Part shown: positions 3,579-61,540 of the stretch, piece after piece
Layout of the letters: the number at the start of each line of letters is the position of its first letter
How positions within the stretch are numbered: the stretch's first letter is position 1
From: the human T2T-CHM13v2.0 reference genome, Homo sapiens
Length of the DNA: 64,000 bases
Strand: one strand, 5' to 3'
NCBI RefSeq assembly: GCF_009914755.1
Contig: NC_060948.1
Translations under genes and position numbers: made by a program
The notes under the pieces: generated by a model
The model's input: only the letters and a program-made list of their open reading frames with translations
Databases searched by the model: none
Told to the model about the DNA's origin: nothing

Positions 3579-9757
<6,179 letters not shown>

Positions 9758-14700: not shown

Positions 14701-14715
14701 TGCAAAATGCTTTTA

Positions 14716-15505
14716 ATAGATGAATAGGTGGATAGAAGGATGAATAGATATTGAATGGATAGATAAATGAATGATGGGTGGATTGATAGATCAATGGACA
14801 GAAAGATGCATAGATAATGGATGATTGGATGAACAGAAAAGGATAAATGGATGGATGGATGGTGAATAAATAGATAATCTGTAAATTAATGTATTGATGG
14901 ATGAATAGAAAATGGTCTAATGATGGATGAATGAATAGATGAAAGGAAGGATGGATATATAATGGATTGGTGAGTGATAGAATGACTGATAGATTGATGA
15001 ATGAAAATCTTCTGGATGGGTAAATGAACAGATAGGAGAATAGATTGATGGATGATTGATGGATGAATTGATAAATATATAATGAATGAATGGATGGATG
15101 AGTGGGTGGATTGATGGGTGAATGGATGTGTGGGTGGGTGGATGGGTGATTGATGGATGGAGGGAAGGATAAATGGTTAAGTGGCTGGACTGATGGATTA
15201 ATGGATGGATGATGGACAGATGAATAGATAATGTACACATGAATGGATGATGAATAAATCGGTGGGTGAATGGATAAATAGGTAATTTACAAATCAATGG
15301 GTAGATAGGTATATAACAGGTGAACAAATGGATAAACAGATGGGTGGTTGGATAGATATATAATGGGTGGATGGATGAATATATAATGAATGAATGAATG
15401 GATGGATGGATGGATTATGGGTGGGTTGACAGATGGATATATAATGTATGCATTAATGGATGGGTGGATGGAAAAATGGATGGATGGAAACATAGATGGA
15501 TGATG
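14716..15505 (+). repeat. Degenerate (GGAT/GAAT/AGAT)n block
   Basis: About 790 bp of tetramer-derived repeat. Confidence 0.95.
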
Positions 15506-15747
15506 TGGCTGAACCCCTTGCCACAGAAGTCTCTGAAGAGACAAACTTCATATGTTCTCATGTTCTTGGTCTTTGTTTATTTCCACAAAGCAAAGCAGCA
15601 AGAGCTAGCAATTGGTGCAAAATTCACAATTGGGTCAGCAGCTGAGTGCTGTACTTAGATGGATGAAGGCCATACATGGCCAAAATGCAGGAGCAAGATC
15701 AAGTTCACCAAGAGAGAGACATAAGGACCAAGTCTGACATCTCTATT

Positions 15748-17784: not shown

Positions 17785-18240
17785 GGCCATCCATATTACG
17801 TCTAAGTATTCATCTATGCATTCATTTACCTAACATCCATCCATCCATCTATCCTTCCATCCATCCATCCATCCATGTATCCATCCATCCATCCATCCAT
17901 CCATCCATCCATCCATCCATCCATCTGTATTCCATCATCCATTCAATCCATTTGTCCATCTATCATCCTTTTATGCATACAACTATCAATCAATCCATTT
18001 ATCCATCTATCATCCTTTTATGCATACATCTATCAATCCATCAACATGTTAGCTATTCATTCATCCAACCTCCATTCAATCATTCATTATTCATCTATCT
18101 ATCCAACCATCCACTACCCATCTATCAATTCATCCGTTATCAACCATCCATTCATCCATATTTTATATATACATCCATCATCTATCCATTGTCTTCCATC
18201 TATCCATCTACCTGCATGCATCCATCATCTATTTATTTAT
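17785..18240 (-). repeat. (CCAT)n block, i.e. (GGAT)n on the minus strand
   Basis: Near-perfect CCAT run decaying rightward. Confidence 0.95.
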
Positions 18241-18402
18241 CATAGTCCTTGGTCATGGTTCTGAATAAGAAAATCCTTGACGGTCTTGAACAGGAATTAG
18301 TCCTCTCATCGACCAAGTCCAGCAGGCTGGAACCTGGACACAGAACAGGTTCATAAGAGTGGTTCCACATTGGAGCAACCATGGACATAGGCAAAGCCCT
18401 GC
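18241..18402 (-). pseudogene. Candidate exon, 162 nt (phase 1 to 1), donor apparently mutated
   Basis: gtaacactatacttccctag|; open GRALPMSMVAPMWNHSYEPVLCPGSSLLDLVDERTNSCSRPSRIFLFRTMTKDY; ends at g|ataaat. Confidence 0.45.
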
Positions 18403-25827: not shown

Positions 25828-26196
25828 TAAAGTCTGTTTTTAAAAAACACACAGGCCAGGAGTGTTGGCTCACGCTTATAATCCCAGCACTTTGGGAAGC
25901 TGATCCAAGAGGATTGCTTGAGTTCAGGAGTTCAAGACCAACCTGGGCTACACAATGACACCCTGTCTCAATGAAAATAAAGATAAAAGTAGCCAGGCAT
26001 GGTAGCAGGAGCCTGTAACCCCAGCTACTCAGGAGACAGAGGTTGCAGTGAGCTGAGATGGCACTGCTGTACTTCAGCCTGGGTGGCAGAGCAAGACTTT
26101 GAAAACACACACACATACAAACACACACAAACACACACACACACAGTGACTCAAATGTGAAAAGATGCTCAAAATTACTCATGATGAAAGAAATTT
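25828..26196 (+). repeat. Left arm of local inverted duplication (Alu plus flanks)
   Basis: Reverse complement of 26771-27113, including non-Alu flanks and the same internal Alu deletion. Confidence 0.9.
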
Positions 26197-26770: not shown

Positions 26771-27094
26771 AAATTTCATTCATCATGAGTAATGTTGAGC
26801 ATCTTTTTATATGTTTGAGTCACTGTGTGTTTGTATTTTCAAAGTCTTGCTCTGCCACCCAGGCTGAAGTGCAGCAGTGCCGTCTCAGCTCACTGCAACC
26901 TCTGTCTCCTGAGTAGCTGGGATTACAGGCTCCTTCTACAATGCCTGGCTACTTTTATTTTTATTTTCGTTGATACAGGGTGTCATTGTGTAACCCAGGC
27001 TGGTCTTGAACTCCTGGACTCAAGCAATCCTCTTGGATCAGCTCCCCAAAGTGCTGGGATTATCAGTGTGAGCCAACACTCCTGGCCTGTGTGT

Positions 27095-27113
<19 letters not shown>
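26771..27113 (-). repeat. Right arm of local inverted duplication
   Basis: Matches the left arm; continues into the L1MC 3' end. Confidence 0.9.
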
Positions 27114-31550: not shown

Positions 31551-31625
31551 TATCTTTTTTTGTTTGCTTGTTTAGACACAGGTTCTCACTGTCACTGAGG
31601 CTGGAGTGCAGTAGCACCATCAAAG

Positions 31626-31907
31626 AGAGAGGTGAAGCCAGATGGGCTTCCTGGGTCAAGTGGGAATTGAAGACACAAATAAGGGAATAAAAGTTAGCCA
31701 CCCCAGCCAGCAGTGGCAACCCACTTTGGTCCCCTTCCACGATGTCGAAGCGTTATTCTTTCACTCCTCACAGTAAATTTTGCTGTGGCTCACTCTTTGA
31801 GTCTGTGCCATCTTTAAGAACTCTAACACTCACTGCAAAGGTCCGCAGCTCCATTCTTGAAGTCAGCGAGACCATGAACCCACTGGAAGGAACAAACTGT
31901 TGACACA
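31626..31907 (+). mobile_element. 5' LTR12(F-like) lacking the U3 repeat region
   Basis: Colinear with the 3' LTR apart from a ~155-bp gap; followed by PBS-like tggagaccagaaagggac (31911-31928). Confidence 0.85.
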
Positions 31908-32452
31908 TCTTGGAGACCAGAAAGGGACTATGACCAAGCGGTGAGTACCATTTGACCCCTTTCAATTGCTATTCTGTCCTATTTTTCCTTAGAATTTGGG
32001 GGTTAAAATTCAGGCACTATCAGCCAGTTAAAAGGAATTAGCTTGGCCACCAGACTAAAGACACGGGTGTCAGGCTTTCTGGGAAAAGGCTCTTTTACAA
32101 CTCCCGAGTCTTCAGAGTTGGGAGTGTTAGTTTGCCTGGAACCAGCTTCCCATTTTCTTGCATTTCCAGGCTGAGCCAAGGGTTGACAGAGAGGAAAGCC
32201 ATTCAGTTCCAGGGTACTGACAAAAAGTTCGTTGACCCCGTAGCCATGAGCAGATCTCTCAAAGTCATGTCACCCAAGCAAGACTCACCCAACTATCCTA
32301 TCTATCCTGACTCTTGCCTCCTGGGTCCTAACGCCTGTAAGATACACTTCCTCACACCTCTCTTCTCCGAGGCTAGTCCTACTTCTAAAAACCACTCCCT
32401 GTCATTGGTGCTTTTCTAGTTTCTCCTATATGAATGATTTCTGTTATAAATT

Positions 32453-37722
<5,270 letters not shown>

Positions 37723-38177
37723 TCTGTTGATTGGAATAGTTTCAGAAGGAATGGTACCAGTTCCTCCTTGTACTTCTGGTAGAATTTGGCTGTGAATCCA
37801 TCTGGTCCTGGACTCATTTTGGTTGGTAAGCTATTGATTATTGCCACAATTTCAGAGTCTGTTATTGGTCTATTCAGAGATTCACCTTCTGTCTGGTTTA
37901 GTCTTGAGAGGGTGTATGTGTCGAGGAATTTATCTGCCTCCAATAAGTCAAATATCTAGGCCTAATCTTAGCCAGAGGAACCAGGATCTAATTAAACTCA
38001 AGAGCTTCTGCACAGCAATAGAAACTACCACCAGATGCCACAGAAATACAAACTACCATCAGAGAATACTACAAACACCTCTATGCAAATAAACTAGAAA
38101 ATCTAGAAGAAATGGATAAATTCACTATCACCAGAGTGAACAGGCATCCTACAAAATGGGAGAAAATTTTCACACCT
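37723..38177. other. Templated-insertion mosaic at the L1/HERV9 deletion junction
   Basis: Four pieces copied from the adjacent L1 in both orientations plus one pol piece. Confidence 0.85.
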
Positions 38178-38178
38178 C

Positions 38179-39270
38179 CCAGGGCCCTCAGCAAGGAATG
38201 AATACAGCCTATACTGGCTTATCCTAGCCCCAAGACATTAAAACAGTTGCAAGTGTTCCTTCGAATCACGGGCTTTTGCCAACTATGGATCCATAAATAC
38301 AGTGAGATGGCCAGGCCCCTCTACTCTAACCAAGGAGACTCAGAGGGCAAATACTCATCTAGTAGAATGGGAACCAGAGGCAGAAACAGCCTTCAAAACC
38401 TTAAAGCAGTCCCTAGTACAAACTCCAGGCTTAAGACTTCCAACAGGAAAAAACTTCTCTTTATACATCACAGAGAGAGCAGGAATAGCTCTTGCAGTAC
38501 TTTCTCAGACTTGTGGGACAATCCCACAACCAGTGGCATACCTAAGTAAGGAAATTGATATAGTAGCAAAAACCTGGCCTCACTGTTTATGGGTATTTGT
38601 GGCGGTGGCTGTCTTAGTGTCAGAGGCTACCAAAATAATAACAAGGAAAAGATCTCACTGTCTGGACTACTCATGATGTAAATGCCATACTAGGTGCCAA
38701 GGTAGTTTATGGCTATCTGACAACCACCTGCTTAGATAACAGGCACTACTCTTTGAGGGACTTGTGCTTCAGATATGCACATGTGTGTCCCTTAACCCTG
38801 CCACTTTTCTCCCAGAGGATGGAGAATCAATCGAGTATGACTGCCAACAAATTATAGTCCAGATTTATGCCACCCAAGATCCTCTCTTAGAAGTCCCCTT
38901 AGTCAATCCTGACCTTAACCTATATACCAATGGAAGTTCATTTGTGGAGAATGGGATACAAAGGCAGGTTATGCCATAGTAATGTAACAGTACTTGAAAG
39001 TAAGCCTCTTCCCCCAGGGATGAACTCCCAGTTAGCAGAACTAGTGGCACTAACCTGAGCCTTATTATTGGGAAAGCAAAAAAGAATAAATGTGTATACA
39101 GATAGAGAGCAAGTATGCTTATCTAATCCTACATGCCCATGCTGCAATATGAAAAGAAAGGGCGTTCTTAACCTCTGAGGGAACCCCCATTAAGTACCAC
39201 AAGGGAATCATGGAGTTATTGCACACAGTACAAAAACCCAAGGAAGTGGCTCTCTTACACTGCTGAAGCC
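38179..39270 (+). pseudogene. pol: HERV9 pol remnant (RT 3' part, tether, RNase H)
   Basis: FLRITGFCQLWI, PVAYLSKEID, LYTNGSSFV; frameshifts and stops. Confidence 0.85.
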
Positions 39271-39989
39271 ATCAAAAAGGGGAAGGAGAGGGGAGAAGAG
39301 CAGCATAAGCAGCTGGCAGAGTCAGGGAAAGACCAGCAGAGAAGAAAGAAAGAGAGAAAGAGAGAGATGGAATTAGTAAGGAAAAAACAGCATACCCAAT
39401 TTATTTAAAAGCCAGGGTAAATTTAAAACCTATAATTGATAATTGAAGGTCTTCTCTGTAATCCTATAACACTCTAGTGCCACCTTGTTGTCAGTGTAAA
39501 CAAGGGTGCAGCCCAAAAGCACTGTGGCCATTGACAACCAATAGCTTTCCTATCAAAAATCCTTAACGCAGCATGTTTCCTAACCCAGGCTCTACATATT
39601 AATTAATTACCATACAAAGGTCTGACCAGACCTAGGAGGTGCTCCTTTCAGGACAGGAGGATAGATGGTTCCTCCTGGACTATTTAGGGAAAATGACACT
39701 ATGTATATTGAGTAAGTGATAAGGAAACTCTTTTAGAAGCAGAGTTAGGAAAATTGCCTAATAATTGATCTGCTCAAACGTGAGAGCTGTTTGCACTCAG
39801 CCAAACCTTAACATACATACAGAATCAGGGAAGAGACATCTATACCAATTCTAAGTTAATATGGACTGAATGAGGTCTTATTAATAGCAAAGAATAATTG
39901 AAATCTCACACTTACAAGGTTTTCAACAAAAGTAAAGTTTGCTAAAAGTTAACAGCGTAACATGTATTATCCTAACATAATCTTATGGA

Positions 39990-40620
39990 AATCAGACCCT
40001 ATCAGTGCCCCTCAAAGCTCAAGTCCATCATCACAGAGCCATACAACTAATACCCTTACTTATAGGATTAGGAATGGCCAGTGCTACAGGAAACTGAATA
40101 GCAGGTTTATCTACTTCATTATCCTAGTACCACACACTCTCAAAGGATTTCTCAGACAGTTTGCAAGAAATAACAAAATCTATCCTTACTTTATAATCTC
40201 AAATAGACTGGCAGCAGTGACTCTCCAAAACCACCAAGGCCTAGACCTCCTCACTGCTGAGAAAGGAGGACTTTGCACTTTCTTTGGGCCTTTGGGCAAG
40301 GGTATTGTTTTCACACTAAGCAGCCAGGGACAGTACAAGTTGCCACCTGGCATTTACTGATAAAGGCTTCTGAAATCAGACAATGCCTTTCAAACTCTTA
40401 TATTGACCTTTAGGGTTGGGCAACAAAGCTTTTCCCCTTTCTAGGTCATGACAGCCATCTTGCTATTACTTGCTTTCCGACCCTGTATTTTTAAACTCCT
40501 TATCAGATTTGTTTTCTCTAGGATCAAGGCCATTGAGCTACAGATGGTCTTACAAATGGAATCCAAAATGAGCGCAACTCATAACTTCTACCCATGACCT
40601 GTGGTTCAACCCACTGACCC
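39990..40620 (+). pseudogene. env: HERV9 env TM remnant
   Basis: LAAVTLQNHQGLDLLTAEKGGLC immunosuppressive domain. Confidence 0.85.
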
Positions 40621-40757
40621 TTTGGCCTAAAAAATTCCCCTCTGGAGGACACTAAAACTGCAGGGCCCCTTCTTTGCCCCTATCCAGCAGGCAGTAGCTA
40701 CAGCGGTCATCACTCGATTCCCAACAGCAGTTGGGATGTCCTGTTAAGAGGGGGAAT

Positions 40758-41195
40758 TGAGAGGTGAAGCCAGCTGGACTTCTTGGGTCAAATAGGGATT
40801 TTGGGAACTTTTCAGTAGCTAGCCAGAGGTGTGTAAAATGCACCAAACAGTGCTCTGTAAAATGGACGAATCGGCACTCTGTAAAATGGATTAATCATCA
40901 CTTGGTAAAATGGATGAATCAGCCCTCTTTAAAATGGGCCAGTCATCAGGACATGGACAGGGACAAATAAGGGAATAAAAGCTGGCCACCCCAGCCAGCA
41001 GTGGAAACCTGCTCGGGTCCCATTCCACGCTGTGGAAACTTTTTTCTTTCACTCCTCACAATAAAATTTGCTGCTTGTCACTCTTTATGTTTGTGCCATC
41101 TTTAAGAGCTGTAACACTCACCTCAAAGGTCCGAGGCTCCGTTCTCGAAGTCAGGGTGACCACAAATCCACTCTCAGGAAAAAATTCTGAACACA
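40758..41195 (+). mobile_element. 3' LTR12(F-like) with five 24-bp tandem units (40835-40950)
   Basis: PPT then TGAGAGGTGAAGCCAGC...GAACACA; AATAAA. Confidence 0.9.
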
Positions 41196-41340
41196 ATAGC
41201 TCATTGTAGCCTCCAACTCCTGTACTCAAATGATCCTCCCTGCTCAGCTTCCTGAGTAGCTGGGACTCAGTGGCAGATATCACCACTTCTGGCTAATTTT
41301 TTGAATGTAATTTTTGTACAGAGAGGATCTCACTATATTT

Positions 41341-41702
41341 TCATGCCTCAGCCTCACAAGCATCTGGTAGCACATGCCTGGGATATATATATATTTATTT
41401 TATTATATTATATATATTTTTATTATACTTTAAGTTTTAGGGTACATGTGCACACCGTGCAGGTTTGTTACATATGTATACCTATACCATGTTGGTGTGC
41501 TGCGCCCATTAATTCATCATTTACATTAGATATATTTATATCTATGTATCTATCTATCTATCTACCTATCTATACAGTATTTCTAGGAATGATGGAGTTT
41601 GTCATATTGGCCAGGCTGGCCTCGAATTCATGACTTCAAGTGATCCATCCACTTTGGCCTGCAAAGTCCTGGGACAACAAGTGTGAGCCACTGTGCTTGG
41701 CC
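41341..41702 (-). mobile_element. Partial Alu with a short L1PA 3' tail (~41395-41530) in its linker
   Basis: ttatactttaagttttagggtacatgtgcac between Alu halves. Confidence 0.7.
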
Positions 41703-41917
41703 ATATATTCCATCTTTTCATACAGCTGTGAGTGGGGCAAGTTCCTTGTTAATTATTTTTTCCTATCAATATTGCTTTCAACATCACCTGAGCACTAATT
41801 ATTTGAAGATGTAACCATTTGTGCATTTATCTAATTTCTGCAACAAAGCAGCCTCTTTCTCTGCTTGCACAAAGAGCAGACATAAAGAATGAAATAGCGC
41901 AACCTTGGGGGAAATAC

Positions 41918-42053
41918 CTCCTGGAGAGACTCCTGATATTCATTCCTCTCTTTTTCCAATGCATTGCTCCTTGGACACAACACTTGGCTTCTTGGAGTCA
42001 GGATACCATGCCCCTCACTTCCTTGCAGCTGGAAGGACTTGGGACCCAGATGT
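41918..42053 (-). pseudogene. Candidate exon (phase 2 to 0)
   Basis: ttttttcattatgcaccag|...gag|gtattt; 136 nt open HLGPKSFQLQGSEGHGILTPRSQVLCPRSNALEKERNEYQESLQE. Confidence 0.55.
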
Positions 42054-48699: not shown

Positions 48700-48820
48700 C
48701 ATGCATTTTCCACAGATGCTTTCATCAAGTACGACAGACTGGGTGACGTCCATAACAGAAAGCTACTGTTTTTACAGTTCTGGAGGCCAGAAGAAGTCTG
48801 AGCACAAAATGTCAGTGGGT
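48700..48820 (-). mobile_element. MLT1 fragment
   Basis: acagactgggtg...acagttctggaggccagaa. Confidence 0.55.
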
Positions 48821-51463
48821 TTATAGTCCCTTGGGTATATACCCAGTAATGGGATGGCTGGGTCAAATGGTATTTCCAGTTCTGGATCCCTGAGGAGTCA
48901 CCACACTGATTGACAGTTGGGTGTTAATGTCTCCCATTATTATTGTGTGGGAGTCTAAGTCTCTTTGTAGTTCCGTAAGGCCTTCCTTTATGAATCTGGA
49001 TCCTCCTGTATTGGGTTCATATGTATTTAAGATAGTTCGATCTTCTTGTTGTATTGATCCCTTACCATTATGTAATGGCCTTCTTTGTCTCTTTTGATCT
49101 TTGTTGGTTTAAAGTCTGTTTTATCAGAGACTAGAATTGCAACCCTTGTCTTTTTTTCTTTTCAATTTTCTTGTTAGATCTTCCTCCATTACTTTATGTT
49201 GAGCCTATGTGTGTCTCTGCACGTGAGATGGGTCTCCTGAATACAGCACACTGATGGGTCTTGACTCTTTATCTAATTTGACAGTCTGTTTCTTTTAATT
49301 GGAATATTTAGTCCATTTATATTTAAGGTTATTATTGTTATATGTGACATTGATCCTATCCTTGTGATGTTAGCTGGTTATTTTGCTCATTAGTTGATGC
49401 AGTTTCTTCCTAGCATTGACGGTCTTTACAATTTCTCTTGTTTTTGCAGGGGCTGTTACTGGTTGTTCCTTTCCATGTTTAGTGCTTCCTTCAGGAGCTC
49501 TTGTAGGGCAGGCCTGGTGGTGACAAAATCTCTCATTTGCTTGTCTGTATATGGTTTTATTTCTCTTTCACTTATGAAGCTTAGTTTGGCTGGATATGAA
49601 ATTCCAAGTTGAAAATTCTTTTCTTTAAGAATGTTGAATATTGGCCCCCACTCTTTCCTGGCTGTAGAGTGTCTTTGAGTGATCCACTGTTAGTCTGATG
49701 GGTTTCCTTTCATGGGTAATCCGACCTTTCTCTCTGGTTTCCCTTAACATTTTTTCCTTCCTTTCAACTTTGGTGAATCTGACAATTATGTGTCTTGGAG
49801 CTGCTTTTCTTGAGAATTATCTTTGTGGCATTCTTTGTATTTCATGAATTTGAATGTTGGCTTGCCTTGCTAGGTTGGGGAAGTTCTCCTGGATAATATC
49901 CTGCAGAGTGTTTTCCAACTTGGTTCCATTCTCCCCATCACTTTCAGGTACACCCATCCAACATAGATTTGGTCTTTTTACATAGTCTGATATTTCTTGG
50001 AGGCTCTGTTCATTTCTTTTTACTCTTTTTTTCTCTAAAATTCTCTTCTCACTTCATTTCATTTATTTAATCTTCAATCACTGATACCCTTTCTTCCAGT
50101 TGATTGAATCAGCTATTGAAGCTTGTGCATTCATCACATAGTTCTCATGCCATGGTTTTCATCTCCATCAGGTCTTTTAAGGACTTCTCTACACTGGTTA
50201 TTCTAGTCAGCCATTTGTCTGATCTCTTTTCAAGGTTTTAGCTTTTTTGCGTTGGGTTCAAACTTCCTCCTTTAGCTCAGAGAATTTTGATCATATGAGG
50301 CCTTCTTCTCTCAATTGGTCAAAGTCATTCTCCATCCAGCTTTGTTCCTTTGCTGTCAAGGAGCTGCATTCCTTTGGAGGGGGAGAGATGTTCTGATATT
50401 TAGACTTTTCAGCTTTTCTGCTCTGTTTTTTCCCCATGTTTATGGTTTTATCTACCTTTGGTCTTTGGTGATAGTGAGGTACACATGTGGTTTTGTTGTG
50501 CATGTCCTTTCTATTTGTTAGTTTTCCTTCTAACAGTCAGGGCCCTCAGCTGCAGGTCTGTTGGAGCTTGCTGGAGGTCCACTCCAGACCCTCTTTTCCT
50601 GGGTATCAGCAGCAGAGGCTGCAGAACAGTGAATATTGCTGAACAGCAAATGTTGCTTCCTGATCATTCCTCTGGAAGCTTCATCTCAGAGGGTTACCCA
50701 GCCATGTGAGTTATCAGTCTGCCCCTGCTGGGCAGTGCCTCCCAGTTAGGCTACTCGGGGTTCAGGGACCCACTTGAGGAGGCAGTGTGTCCATTCTCAG
50801 ATCTCAAACTCCGTGTTGGGAGAACCTCTACTGTATTCAAAGCTGTCAGACAGGGACATTCATGTCTGCAGAGATTTCTGCTGCCTTTTGTTCAGCAGTG
50901 CTCTGCCCCGAGGTGGAGCCTACAGAGGCAGGCAGGCCACCTTGAGCTGTGGTGAGCTCCACACAGTTCAGGCTTCCTGGCTGCTTTGTTTACATACTCA
51001 AGCCTCAGCAATGACGGGCACCCCTCCCCCAGCCTCACTGCTGCCTTGCAGTTTGATCTCAGACTGCTGTGCTAGCAATGAGTGAGGCTCCGTGGGCATG
51101 GGACCCTCCAAGCCAGGTGCTGGATGTAATCTCCTGTATGTCCCATTTGCTAAGACCGTTAGAAAAGCGCAGTTTTAGGGAGGGAGTGACCCAATTTTCC
51201 AGGTGCCCTCTGTCACCCCTTCCCTTGGCTAGGAAAGGGAATTCCCTGACCCCTTGCACTTCCTGTTTGAGGTGATGCCTCACCCTGCTTCAGCTCACAC
51301 TCAGTGGGTTGCACCCACTGTCCTACCCCCACTGTCTGACAAGCCAGTGAGATGAACCTGGTACTGCAGTTGGAAATGCAGAAATCGCTTATCTTCTGTG
51401 TCACTCACACTGGGAGCTGTAGACTGGAGCTGTTCCTATTTGGCCATCTTGGAACCGCGCCCC
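48821..51463 (-). mobile_element. L1PA with intact 5' end, most of ORF2 deleted (junction ~48910) and tail lost
   Basis: 5' UTR, ORF1 and EN start joined to 90 bp from near the ORF2 end. Confidence 0.9.
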
Positions 51464-51464
51464 C

Positions 51465-51619
51465 ACACACATTTTCTTTATCAAGCCTATTATTGATGGA
51501 CATTTGGATTGGTTCCAAATCTTCCCTATTGTGAATAATGCCACAATAAACATACATGTGCATGTGTCTTTATAGTAGCACGATTAATAATCTTTTGAGT
51601 ATATACCCAGTAATGGGAA
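51465..51619 (-). mobile_element. Separate L1 3'-region fragment
   Basis: cacattttctttatc...tatatacccagtaatggga. Confidence 0.8.
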
Positions 51620-59605: not shown

Positions 59606-59950
59606 CTAATATGGTCAGGCTTATCTTAAATTGTAATCCCCAGGTGTTGTGAAAGAGACCTGGTGGAAGGTAATTCAATTATGAGAGCAGTTTTTTCCAT
59701 GCTGTTCTTTTGATGGTGAGTTTTCATGAGATCTGATGGTTTTACAAGGAGCACTTCCCTCTTTTTTACCTTTACTCTCTCTGTCACCTGCCACTATGTA
59801 AGACATACCTGCTTTCCCTTCAGCTATGGTTGTAAATTTCCTTAAGATCCCCTGTCCATGAGAAAATTTGAGTAAATTAAACCTTTTTTTCTTGATAAAT
59901 TACCCAGGCTCAGGCAATTCTTTACAGTAGTGTGGGAACAGACTAATACA
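59606..59950 (+). mobile_element. THE1/MST solo LTR
   Basis: catgagatctgatggtttta...aattaaacc...gactaataca. Confidence 0.8.
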
Positions 59951-61419: not shown

Positions 61420-61540
61420 ACCATCAGATCTCATAAAAACTCACTCACTATCACAAGAAAAACATGGAAAAGACTGCCCACATAATCCAATTACCTTCCA
61501 CCAGATTTCTCTCACAACACCTAGGGATTACAGTTTAAGT
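61420..61540 (-). mobile_element. THE1/MST LTR fragment
   Basis: accatcagatctcat...actcactcactatcacaagaa. Confidence 0.7.

What the first reader, a model, noticed from the sequence alone, without database searches (positions are those of the whole stretch)
37723..38185. Five-piece templated mosaic at the L1/HERV9 deletion junction
Seen: the L1 stops inside its 5' UTR at 37722. Then follow A 37723-37934 (direct copy of 35004-35215), B ~37933-37985 (HERV9 pol), C 37984-38035 (inverted copy of 33422-33473), D 38034-38123 (inverted copy of ~35207-35295) and E 38124-38177 (inverted copy of ~33380-33433). Pol then resumes with ccagg repeated. The copies share variants with this L1 (gtacttctgg, ttcaccttctgtctg, tctattgctg, ctcttgag), whereas the L1 at 3579-9757 reads differently at these sites. 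Several joins have 2-bp microhomology, and C and E overlap by ~12 bp. Gag, pro and 5' pol are missing. Inference: a fossil of serial template switching (FoSTeS/MMBIR or Pol theta repair), not independent L1 insertions.
Basis: partly seen in the sequence, partly recalled or inferred. Interest (0 to 1): 0.7.

Follow-up and report, generated by a model that had tools for sequence, protein, structure and literature searches.

The report
Fossil DNA-repair patch on human Y
In a gene-free stretch of the human Y chromosome, four short pieces copied from the neighbouring L1 element sit at and beside an old deletion, likely left by a repair polymerase that jumped between nearby templates millions of years ago; this is a clear but ordinary example of a known kind of mutation.

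Summary
The mosaic is real. A, C, D and E are 94-98% copies of two spots in the adjacent L1, 2.4-4.3 kb away. Raw best-hit ranking does not single out that L1 for A or E, but private variants do: a 33-nt four-variant haplotype occurs at 2 places in 3.1 Gb (donor and A) against 8,734 for the ordinary form. Correction: B is not a foreign piece. It is retained pol, contiguous with the resumed pol apart from a 5-nt repeat in 19 of 19 related copies. So the structure is a deletion junction bridged by A, plus a 193-nt C-D-E insert 53 nt further on. About 60% of the donor's private variants are shared, 9 of 11 of them amino-acid-changing, so copying happened long after the L1 inserted. Best reading: one replicative template-switching repair event; the enzyme cannot be identified. 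Donor ends pair up with 5-, 9- and 12-nt overlaps, which is unexplained. Known class, no function, low interest.

The parts
31625..32454 (+).
   Evidence: collinear with 7 of 8 fetched related proviral loci; LTR pair 233/284 = 82% identical
32455..37722 (-). L1 inserted in the proviral leader; poly(A) end at left, 5' UTR cut at 37722; donor of all four pieces
   Evidence: 4.4-5.4% from the majority base of 28 relatives; 865-890 nt of 5' UTR present beyond this point in 4 of 4 relatives
33383..33473 (-). Donor of C (33473-33422) and E (33433-33383), 12-nt overlap
35004..35296 (.). Donor of A (35004-35215, direct) and D (35296-35207, inverted), 9-nt overlap
37723..37934 (+). Piece A, 212-nt direct copy bridging the deletion; blunt left join, 2-nt microhomology at right
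37933..37985 (+). B: retained pol, true right flank of the deletion
   Evidence: contiguous with the resumed pol in 19 of 19 related copies
37984..38035 (+). Piece C, 52-nt inverted copy
   Evidence: neighbour is the top non-self hit; 2 private variants shared
38034..38123 (+). Piece D, 90-nt inverted copy; carries no diagnostic variant of its own
   Evidence: only a CpG site shared (12 of 28 relatives also have it); assigned by adjacency to A's donor
38124..38178 (+). Piece E, 51-54-nt inverted copy plus 1-4 linker bases
   Evidence: 1 strictly private variant shared (0 of 17 relatives)
38179..39365 (+). Resumed pol, starting with a 5-nt repeat of the end of B; carries stops and frameshifts
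   Evidence: Pfam RT_RNaseH_2 at E 1.1e-08 for 38350-38658
40756..41195 (+). 3' LTR

Best explanation
Four short pieces copied from the adjacent L1 lie at and 53 nt beyond a junction where about 3.2 kb of the provirus is missing, likely produced in one germline repair event by a polymerase switching templates long after the L1 had inserted. Order of events: provirus first, then an ordinary L1 insertion into its leader (inferred from nesting and divergence), then millions of years of decay (shown by shared private variants), then a break or stalled fork. Repair synthesis likely ran L1 - A - pol(B) - C - D - E - pol, or the reverse, twice returning 5 and 12 nt behind a point it had left. The 3.1-3.3 kb of provirus, and up to 0.9 kb of L1 5' end, were likely lost in the same event. 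The product has no evident function.
For: Shown: haplotype at 2 places genome-wide against 8,734 for the ordinary form. 11 variants shared by copies and donor against the family majority, 4 of them in none of the relatives examined. 9 of 11 change an ORF2 amino acid, as expected from neutral decay in place, not from an active parent. 7 donor-only and 3 copy-only interior changes accumulated since. Donors intact, so this is a copy gain. Mixed orientations, no poly(A), 0-2 nt microhomology. A/D and C/E donors pair end to end, 53 of 200,000 in a random draw, and A sits at the deletion while D sits in the insert, which ties the two joins to one event. No target-site duplicate of the L1's left flank near 37722.
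Against: Microhomology is not clearly above chance (p = 0.05-0.12). Three other L1s match A better by raw identity (8 vs 9 mismatches) and nine match E better. D has no diagnostic variant. The undeleted allele was not seen, so the deletion may predate the patch. No test separates template switching from ligation of copied fragments. The comparison sets were the best hits to A, not a curated subfamily.
Confidence: 0.72

Rival explanations
1. Same local donor, but two or three separate events: a deletion patched with A, and a later C-E insert with a 5-nt duplication into which D was placed with a 12-nt duplication.
For: B is contiguous pol, so C-D-E reads as an insertion with a short duplication. 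C and E both carry a base at donor position 33426 that neither donor nor family has, as a duplication from one intermediate would give.
Against: A and D donors abut with a 9-nt overlap although they sit in different joins; independent events would not be expected 53 nt apart. The shared base can also come from near-homology with the sequence just upstream of D's donor.
Confidence: 0.08
2. Fragment capture: a sister-chromatid copy was cut with staggered ends, and filled-in fragments were ligated into the break by end joining.
For: All three donor pairs overlap by 5, 9 and 12 nt rather than leaving gaps; two joins are blunt.
Against: Needs three staggered cuts and loss of the rest of the cut chromatid. 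Return to a paused template gives the same overlaps. Copy-specific changes cluster within 8 nt of joins (5 of 64 vs 3 of 341 sites, p = 0.003; p = 0.053 if two ambiguous sites are dropped), which fits error-prone priming.
Confidence: 0.09
3. The mosaic formed during L1 integration (twin priming with switching, plus target-site deletion), and the shared variants came from the parent element or from later gene conversion.
For: L1 5' ends do acquire inversions, switches and templated inserts, and truncated insertions have target-site deletions (passages of 10.1101/2024.08.27.596794 and PMC11702581). The missing duplicate flank fits this too.
Against: No parent or sibling with the haplotype exists in this genome at up to 1 mismatch; best relatives of the whole L1 among 40 scored of 38,155 candidates are 90-95% identical. 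9 of 11 shared variants are amino-acid-changing. Conversion would have to hit two donors in both orientations. Inserts described at L1 junctions come from within 15 bp of the site. A and D are not joined as twin priming predicts.
Confidence: 0.07
4. Assembly artefact or independent small L1 insertions.
For: L1 fragments of this age are abundant; D and E alone match many copies as well as the neighbour. No reads were available.
Against: Copies differ from donors at 15 of 405 sites with changes on both sides, including CpG decay; a misassembly would give near-identical copies. Unique haplotype. No poly(A) tails.
Confidence: 0.02

Closest known systems
FoSTeS/MMBIR complex non-homologous deletions with templated inserts
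   Same: Germline deletion with several joins, little or no microhomology, nearby sequence copied in both orientations, donors intact (PMC4937565, passages). Recalled, not read: Abyzov 2015 reports insert templates 2-6 kb from deletion breakpoints, which matches 2.4-4.3 kb here; the paper was not held.
   Different: Old and fixed in a reference rather than a patient or polymorphic variant; all templates inside one L1; datable by shared decay.
Tandem short template (TST) jumps / chains of templated insertions
   Same: Chained short inserts (median 183 bp), breakpoints clustered in 2-3 kb hotspots, infrequent microhomology with blunt or ambiguous joins (10.1101/835058, passages).
   Different: Only four pieces, all within 4.4 kb, no sign of a larger rearrangement in the window; described in broken bridges and tumours. 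Templated insertion threads have over 50 units and self-concatenate (10.1101/2022.02.20.480758, passages); this does not.
Pol theta templated insertions (TMEJ)
   Same: Inserts at a deletion join, sometimes from templates many kb away (PMC7454005, passages).
   Different: Those inserts are 2-35 bp and begin and end with microhomology; here 51-212 nt with two blunt joins.
L1 twin priming with switching; L1 insertion-mediated deletion
   Same: Inverted L1 pieces at an L1 5' end with loss of target sequence.
   Different: Pieces postdate the insertion, duplicate sequence already present in the element, and three of them lie inside pol rather than at the L1 end.

Membership tests
Replicative template-switching rearrangement (FoSTeS/MMBIR type) | Two or more joins with copied segments whose donors remain in place | tested here: met
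   Six joins, four copies, donors intact
Replicative template-switching rearrangement (FoSTeS/MMBIR type) | Templates are local and identifiable as the source | tested here: met
   Haplotype at 2 places only; control 8,734; C top hit; D by adjacency only
Replicative template-switching rearrangement (FoSTeS/MMBIR type) | Microhomology at joins above chance | tested here: inconclusive
   3 of 6 joins with 2 nt, p = 0.05-0.12; near-homology at C|D
Replicative template-switching rearrangement (FoSTeS/MMBIR type) | All joins arise in one event | not testable with these tools
   Needs ape orthologues; donor pairing supports it indirectly
Pol theta templated insertion | Short inserts (about 2-35 bp) started and ended at microhomology | tested here: not met
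   51-212 nt, two blunt joins (size range)
Pol theta templated insertion | Dependence on POLQ | not testable with these tools
   Fossil event
TST jumps | Tandem chain of short inserts from clustered breakpoints | tested here: met
   C-D-E tandem, two donor clusters; sizes at the low end of the described range
TST jumps | Several hotspots megabases apart, linked to bridge breakage or chromothripsis | tested here: not met
   All donors within 4.4 kb of the join
Product of L1 integration (twin priming / target-site deletion) | Pieces as old as the insertion, sharing no later mutations with it | tested here: not met
   11 of 18 donor-private variants shared, 9 of 11 amino-acid-changing
Independent L1 insertions | Poly(A) tail and source elsewhere in the genome | tested here: not met
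   No tail in 37723-38178; haplotype is local

The most novel reading that the evidence does not exclude
The chain records a rule of germline template switching: the polymerase returns 5-12 nt behind each point it left, and the choice of the two L1 donors was steered by a 15-nt internal repeat of L1 ORF2 (33421-33435 and 35266-35280), which lies exactly under the C/E overlap and inside D's donor. If so, old L1s genome-wide hold datable fossils of such chains, with the same pair of L1 sites recurring as donors.
Probability: 0.12. Interest if true: 0.5.

Novelty: new member of a known kind. Interest (0 to 1): 0.2.

Why it matters
As one locus it matters little: no gene, no annotated element, a dead provirus. 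Its use is as a worked case. Chains of short templated inserts are mostly described from tumours and patients; here one was inherited and can be dated, because copies and donor share some of the donor's decay and not the rest. Repeat annotation would list the pieces as separate L1 fragments, so a genome-wide screen by private-variant sharing could count how often germline template switching leaves such chains, and test whether donor ends overlap as a rule.

Tried and rejected
Best-hit ranking as the test of origin: fails for A (3 loci better) and E (9 loci better), passes for C; only 40 candidates are scored per search (of 2,531, 470 and 1,110), so ranks are partial. B as a transported piece: rejected. 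Target-site duplicate of the L1's left flank: 8- to 15-mers searched in 32000-42000, none near 37722; one 10-mer recurs inside the L1 at 35599. Hairpin link between donors: no inverted repeat of 15 nt with up to 1 mismatch or 13 nt exact in the L1. An indel or anomaly in the donor around C/E: none against 6 relatives shown. Twin-priming geometry for A and D: the joined ends do not fit (inference). Rows dropped: 3 of 20 fetched stretches did not align to C and E, 4 of 20 for E and 1 of 28 for D; 1 of 8 long proviral loci had no leader match and 1 gave a 2.0-kb rather than 3.1-3.3-kb gap. Literature: a search for 'Y chromosome' + 'HERV9' + 'templated insertion' found 0 papers; that is the only locus-directed search, so absence from print is not established. 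Abyzov 2015 could not be read. No supplements were read. L1 subfamily and repeat names were not tested against a repeat library.

Full report
Setting. The hub places the window on human chrY in a stretch with no annotated gene. An LTR-leader segment (31625-32454), a pol segment and a 3' LTR (40756-41195) are collinear with related proviral loci elsewhere in the genome, and 38350-38658 matches Pfam RT_RNaseH_2. The two LTRs are 82% identical; ERV9 entered the lineage more than 30 million years ago (PMC8767690, passages). A minus-strand L1 interrupts the leader at 32454. In 7 related copies the leader continues where the window turns into the L1's poly(A) end, after a T-rich flank that resembles an L1 endonuclease site (site consensus recalled).

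Observation. The L1 match ends at 37722; four relatives carry 865-890 nt more 5' UTR. Between the leader end and B, 6 of 8 long related loci have 3.1-3.3 kb, one has 2.0 kb and one gave no leader match; that this stretch holds gag, pro and 5' pol follows from retroviral gene order and was not annotated here.

Correction to the anatomy. In 19 of 19 related copies B runs straight into the resumed pol, with the 5-nt word present once. B is therefore the deletion's right flank. The structure is L1 | A | 53 nt of pol | C-D-E (193 nt, 5-nt duplication) | pol. Joins: L1|A blunt; A|B, B|C and C|D 2-nt microhomology; D|E blunt; E|pol 1-4 extra bases. Three of six joins with 2 nt is marginal (p = 0.05-0.12).

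Is the neighbour the donor? By raw identity not clearly: three other L1s match A with 8 mismatches against 9, nine match E better, and only C ranks the neighbour first; each search scored 40 candidates. Private variants decide it. Against 28 relatives, A and the neighbour share non-majority bases at 37774 (4/28), 37885 (1/28), 37891 (0/28), 37892 (2/28) and 37907 (0/28), and 37816 is best read as a shared change followed by CpG decay. Against 17 usable of 20 relatives, C shares 37999 (1/17) and 38019 (0/17), E shares 38147 (0/17) and a CpG site at 38172 (4/17). D shares only a CpG site (12/28). A 33-nt pattern covering four of A's variants matches 2 places in 3.1 Gb at up to 1 mismatch, donor and A; the ordinary form matches 8,734. 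No paralogue of A exists elsewhere in this assembly.

When? The L1 differs from the majority base of its relatives at 4.4-5.4% of sites. Within the copied segments 11 private variants are shared and 7 are donor-only, so 39% of the L1's decay (95% interval 17-64%) came after copying. Nine of the 11 shared variants change an ORF2 amino acid, as neutral decay would, which argues against inheritance from an active parent. Post-copy divergence is 1.5-1.9% per lineage. With a recalled age of 12-20 million years for L1s with this long 5' UTR, the event is roughly 5-12 million years old; this range is inference and no ape sequence was available. Independent change on both sides also rules against misassembly.

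One event? Donor ends pair: A and D overlap by 9 nt in opposite orientation, C and E by 12 nt, B and pol by 5 nt. Two such pairs within 12 nt arise in 53 of 200,000 random draws from this L1. Because A bridges the deletion and D lies in the insert, the two joins probably belong together. A single synthesis path with six switches, two of them returns to a paused template, accounts for everything; this step is inferred. Copy-specific changes concentrate within 8 nt of joins (p = 0.003, or 0.053 on the stricter count), though piece ends were set by alignment, which can inflate this.

Unexplained. The C/E overlap lies on one copy of a 14-of-15 direct repeat whose partner is inside D's donor, one of 5 such pairs in this L1; a post hoc chance estimate is about 7e-4, yet the C|D join is out of register with the repeat. 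At donor position 33426 the family has one base, the donor a second and both C and E a third; sequence just upstream of D's donor could supply it.

Comparison. It works like FoSTeS/MMBIR-type complex deletions (PMC4937565, passages) and resembles a small, local version of tandem short template jumps (10.1101/835058, passages). It fails the size and microhomology features of Pol theta inserts (PMC7454005, passages), the scale of templated insertion threads (10.1101/2022.02.20.480758, passages) and the timing of L1 integration products (PMC11702581 and 10.1101/2024.08.27.596794, passages). The report that deletion inserts often come from 2-6 kb away (Abyzov 2015) is recalled; the paper was not held and PMC9069542 gave only its citation (passages). 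One locus-directed search found nothing.

Verdict. Real, well supported as local copying after L1 insertion, probably one template-switching repair event, functionally inert. New member of a known kind; interest 0.2.

Noticed in passing
window 31553-31624 and 41196-41300: The provirus appears to sit inside an Alu-type repeat: the two flanks match Alu-like stretches in fetched loci as consecutive halves.
   Followed up: no
window 31625-31908 vs 40756-41195: The 5' LTR lacks about 155 nt present in the 3' LTR, and the pair is only 82% identical, so this is an old integration or the LTRs have mixed ancestry.
   Followed up: partly
window 39290-40120: The 3' part of the provirus aligns in broken fashion to related loci, with gaps of 0.1-1.8 kb depending on the copy; pol-env region is shorter than in several relatives.
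   Followed up: no
window 37700-37722: The L1 is cut just inside the 5' UTR segment that, from recall, younger L1s deleted to escape ZNF93 binding; probably coincidence, not tested.
   Followed up: no
window 25828-26196 vs 26771-27113; 59625-59740 vs 61420-61539: Two short inverted duplications (87% over 371 nt; 84% over 120 nt) in the self-comparison.
   Followed up: no
window 14713-15511 vs 17833-18241: Two related degenerate tandem arrays in inverted orientation.
   Followed up: no
window 48820-51618: Another rearranged L1: short segments matching L1 3' regions (48820-48909, 51468-51618) flank a 2.5-kb 5' portion; may be a twin-primed or similarly patched element.
   Followed up: no
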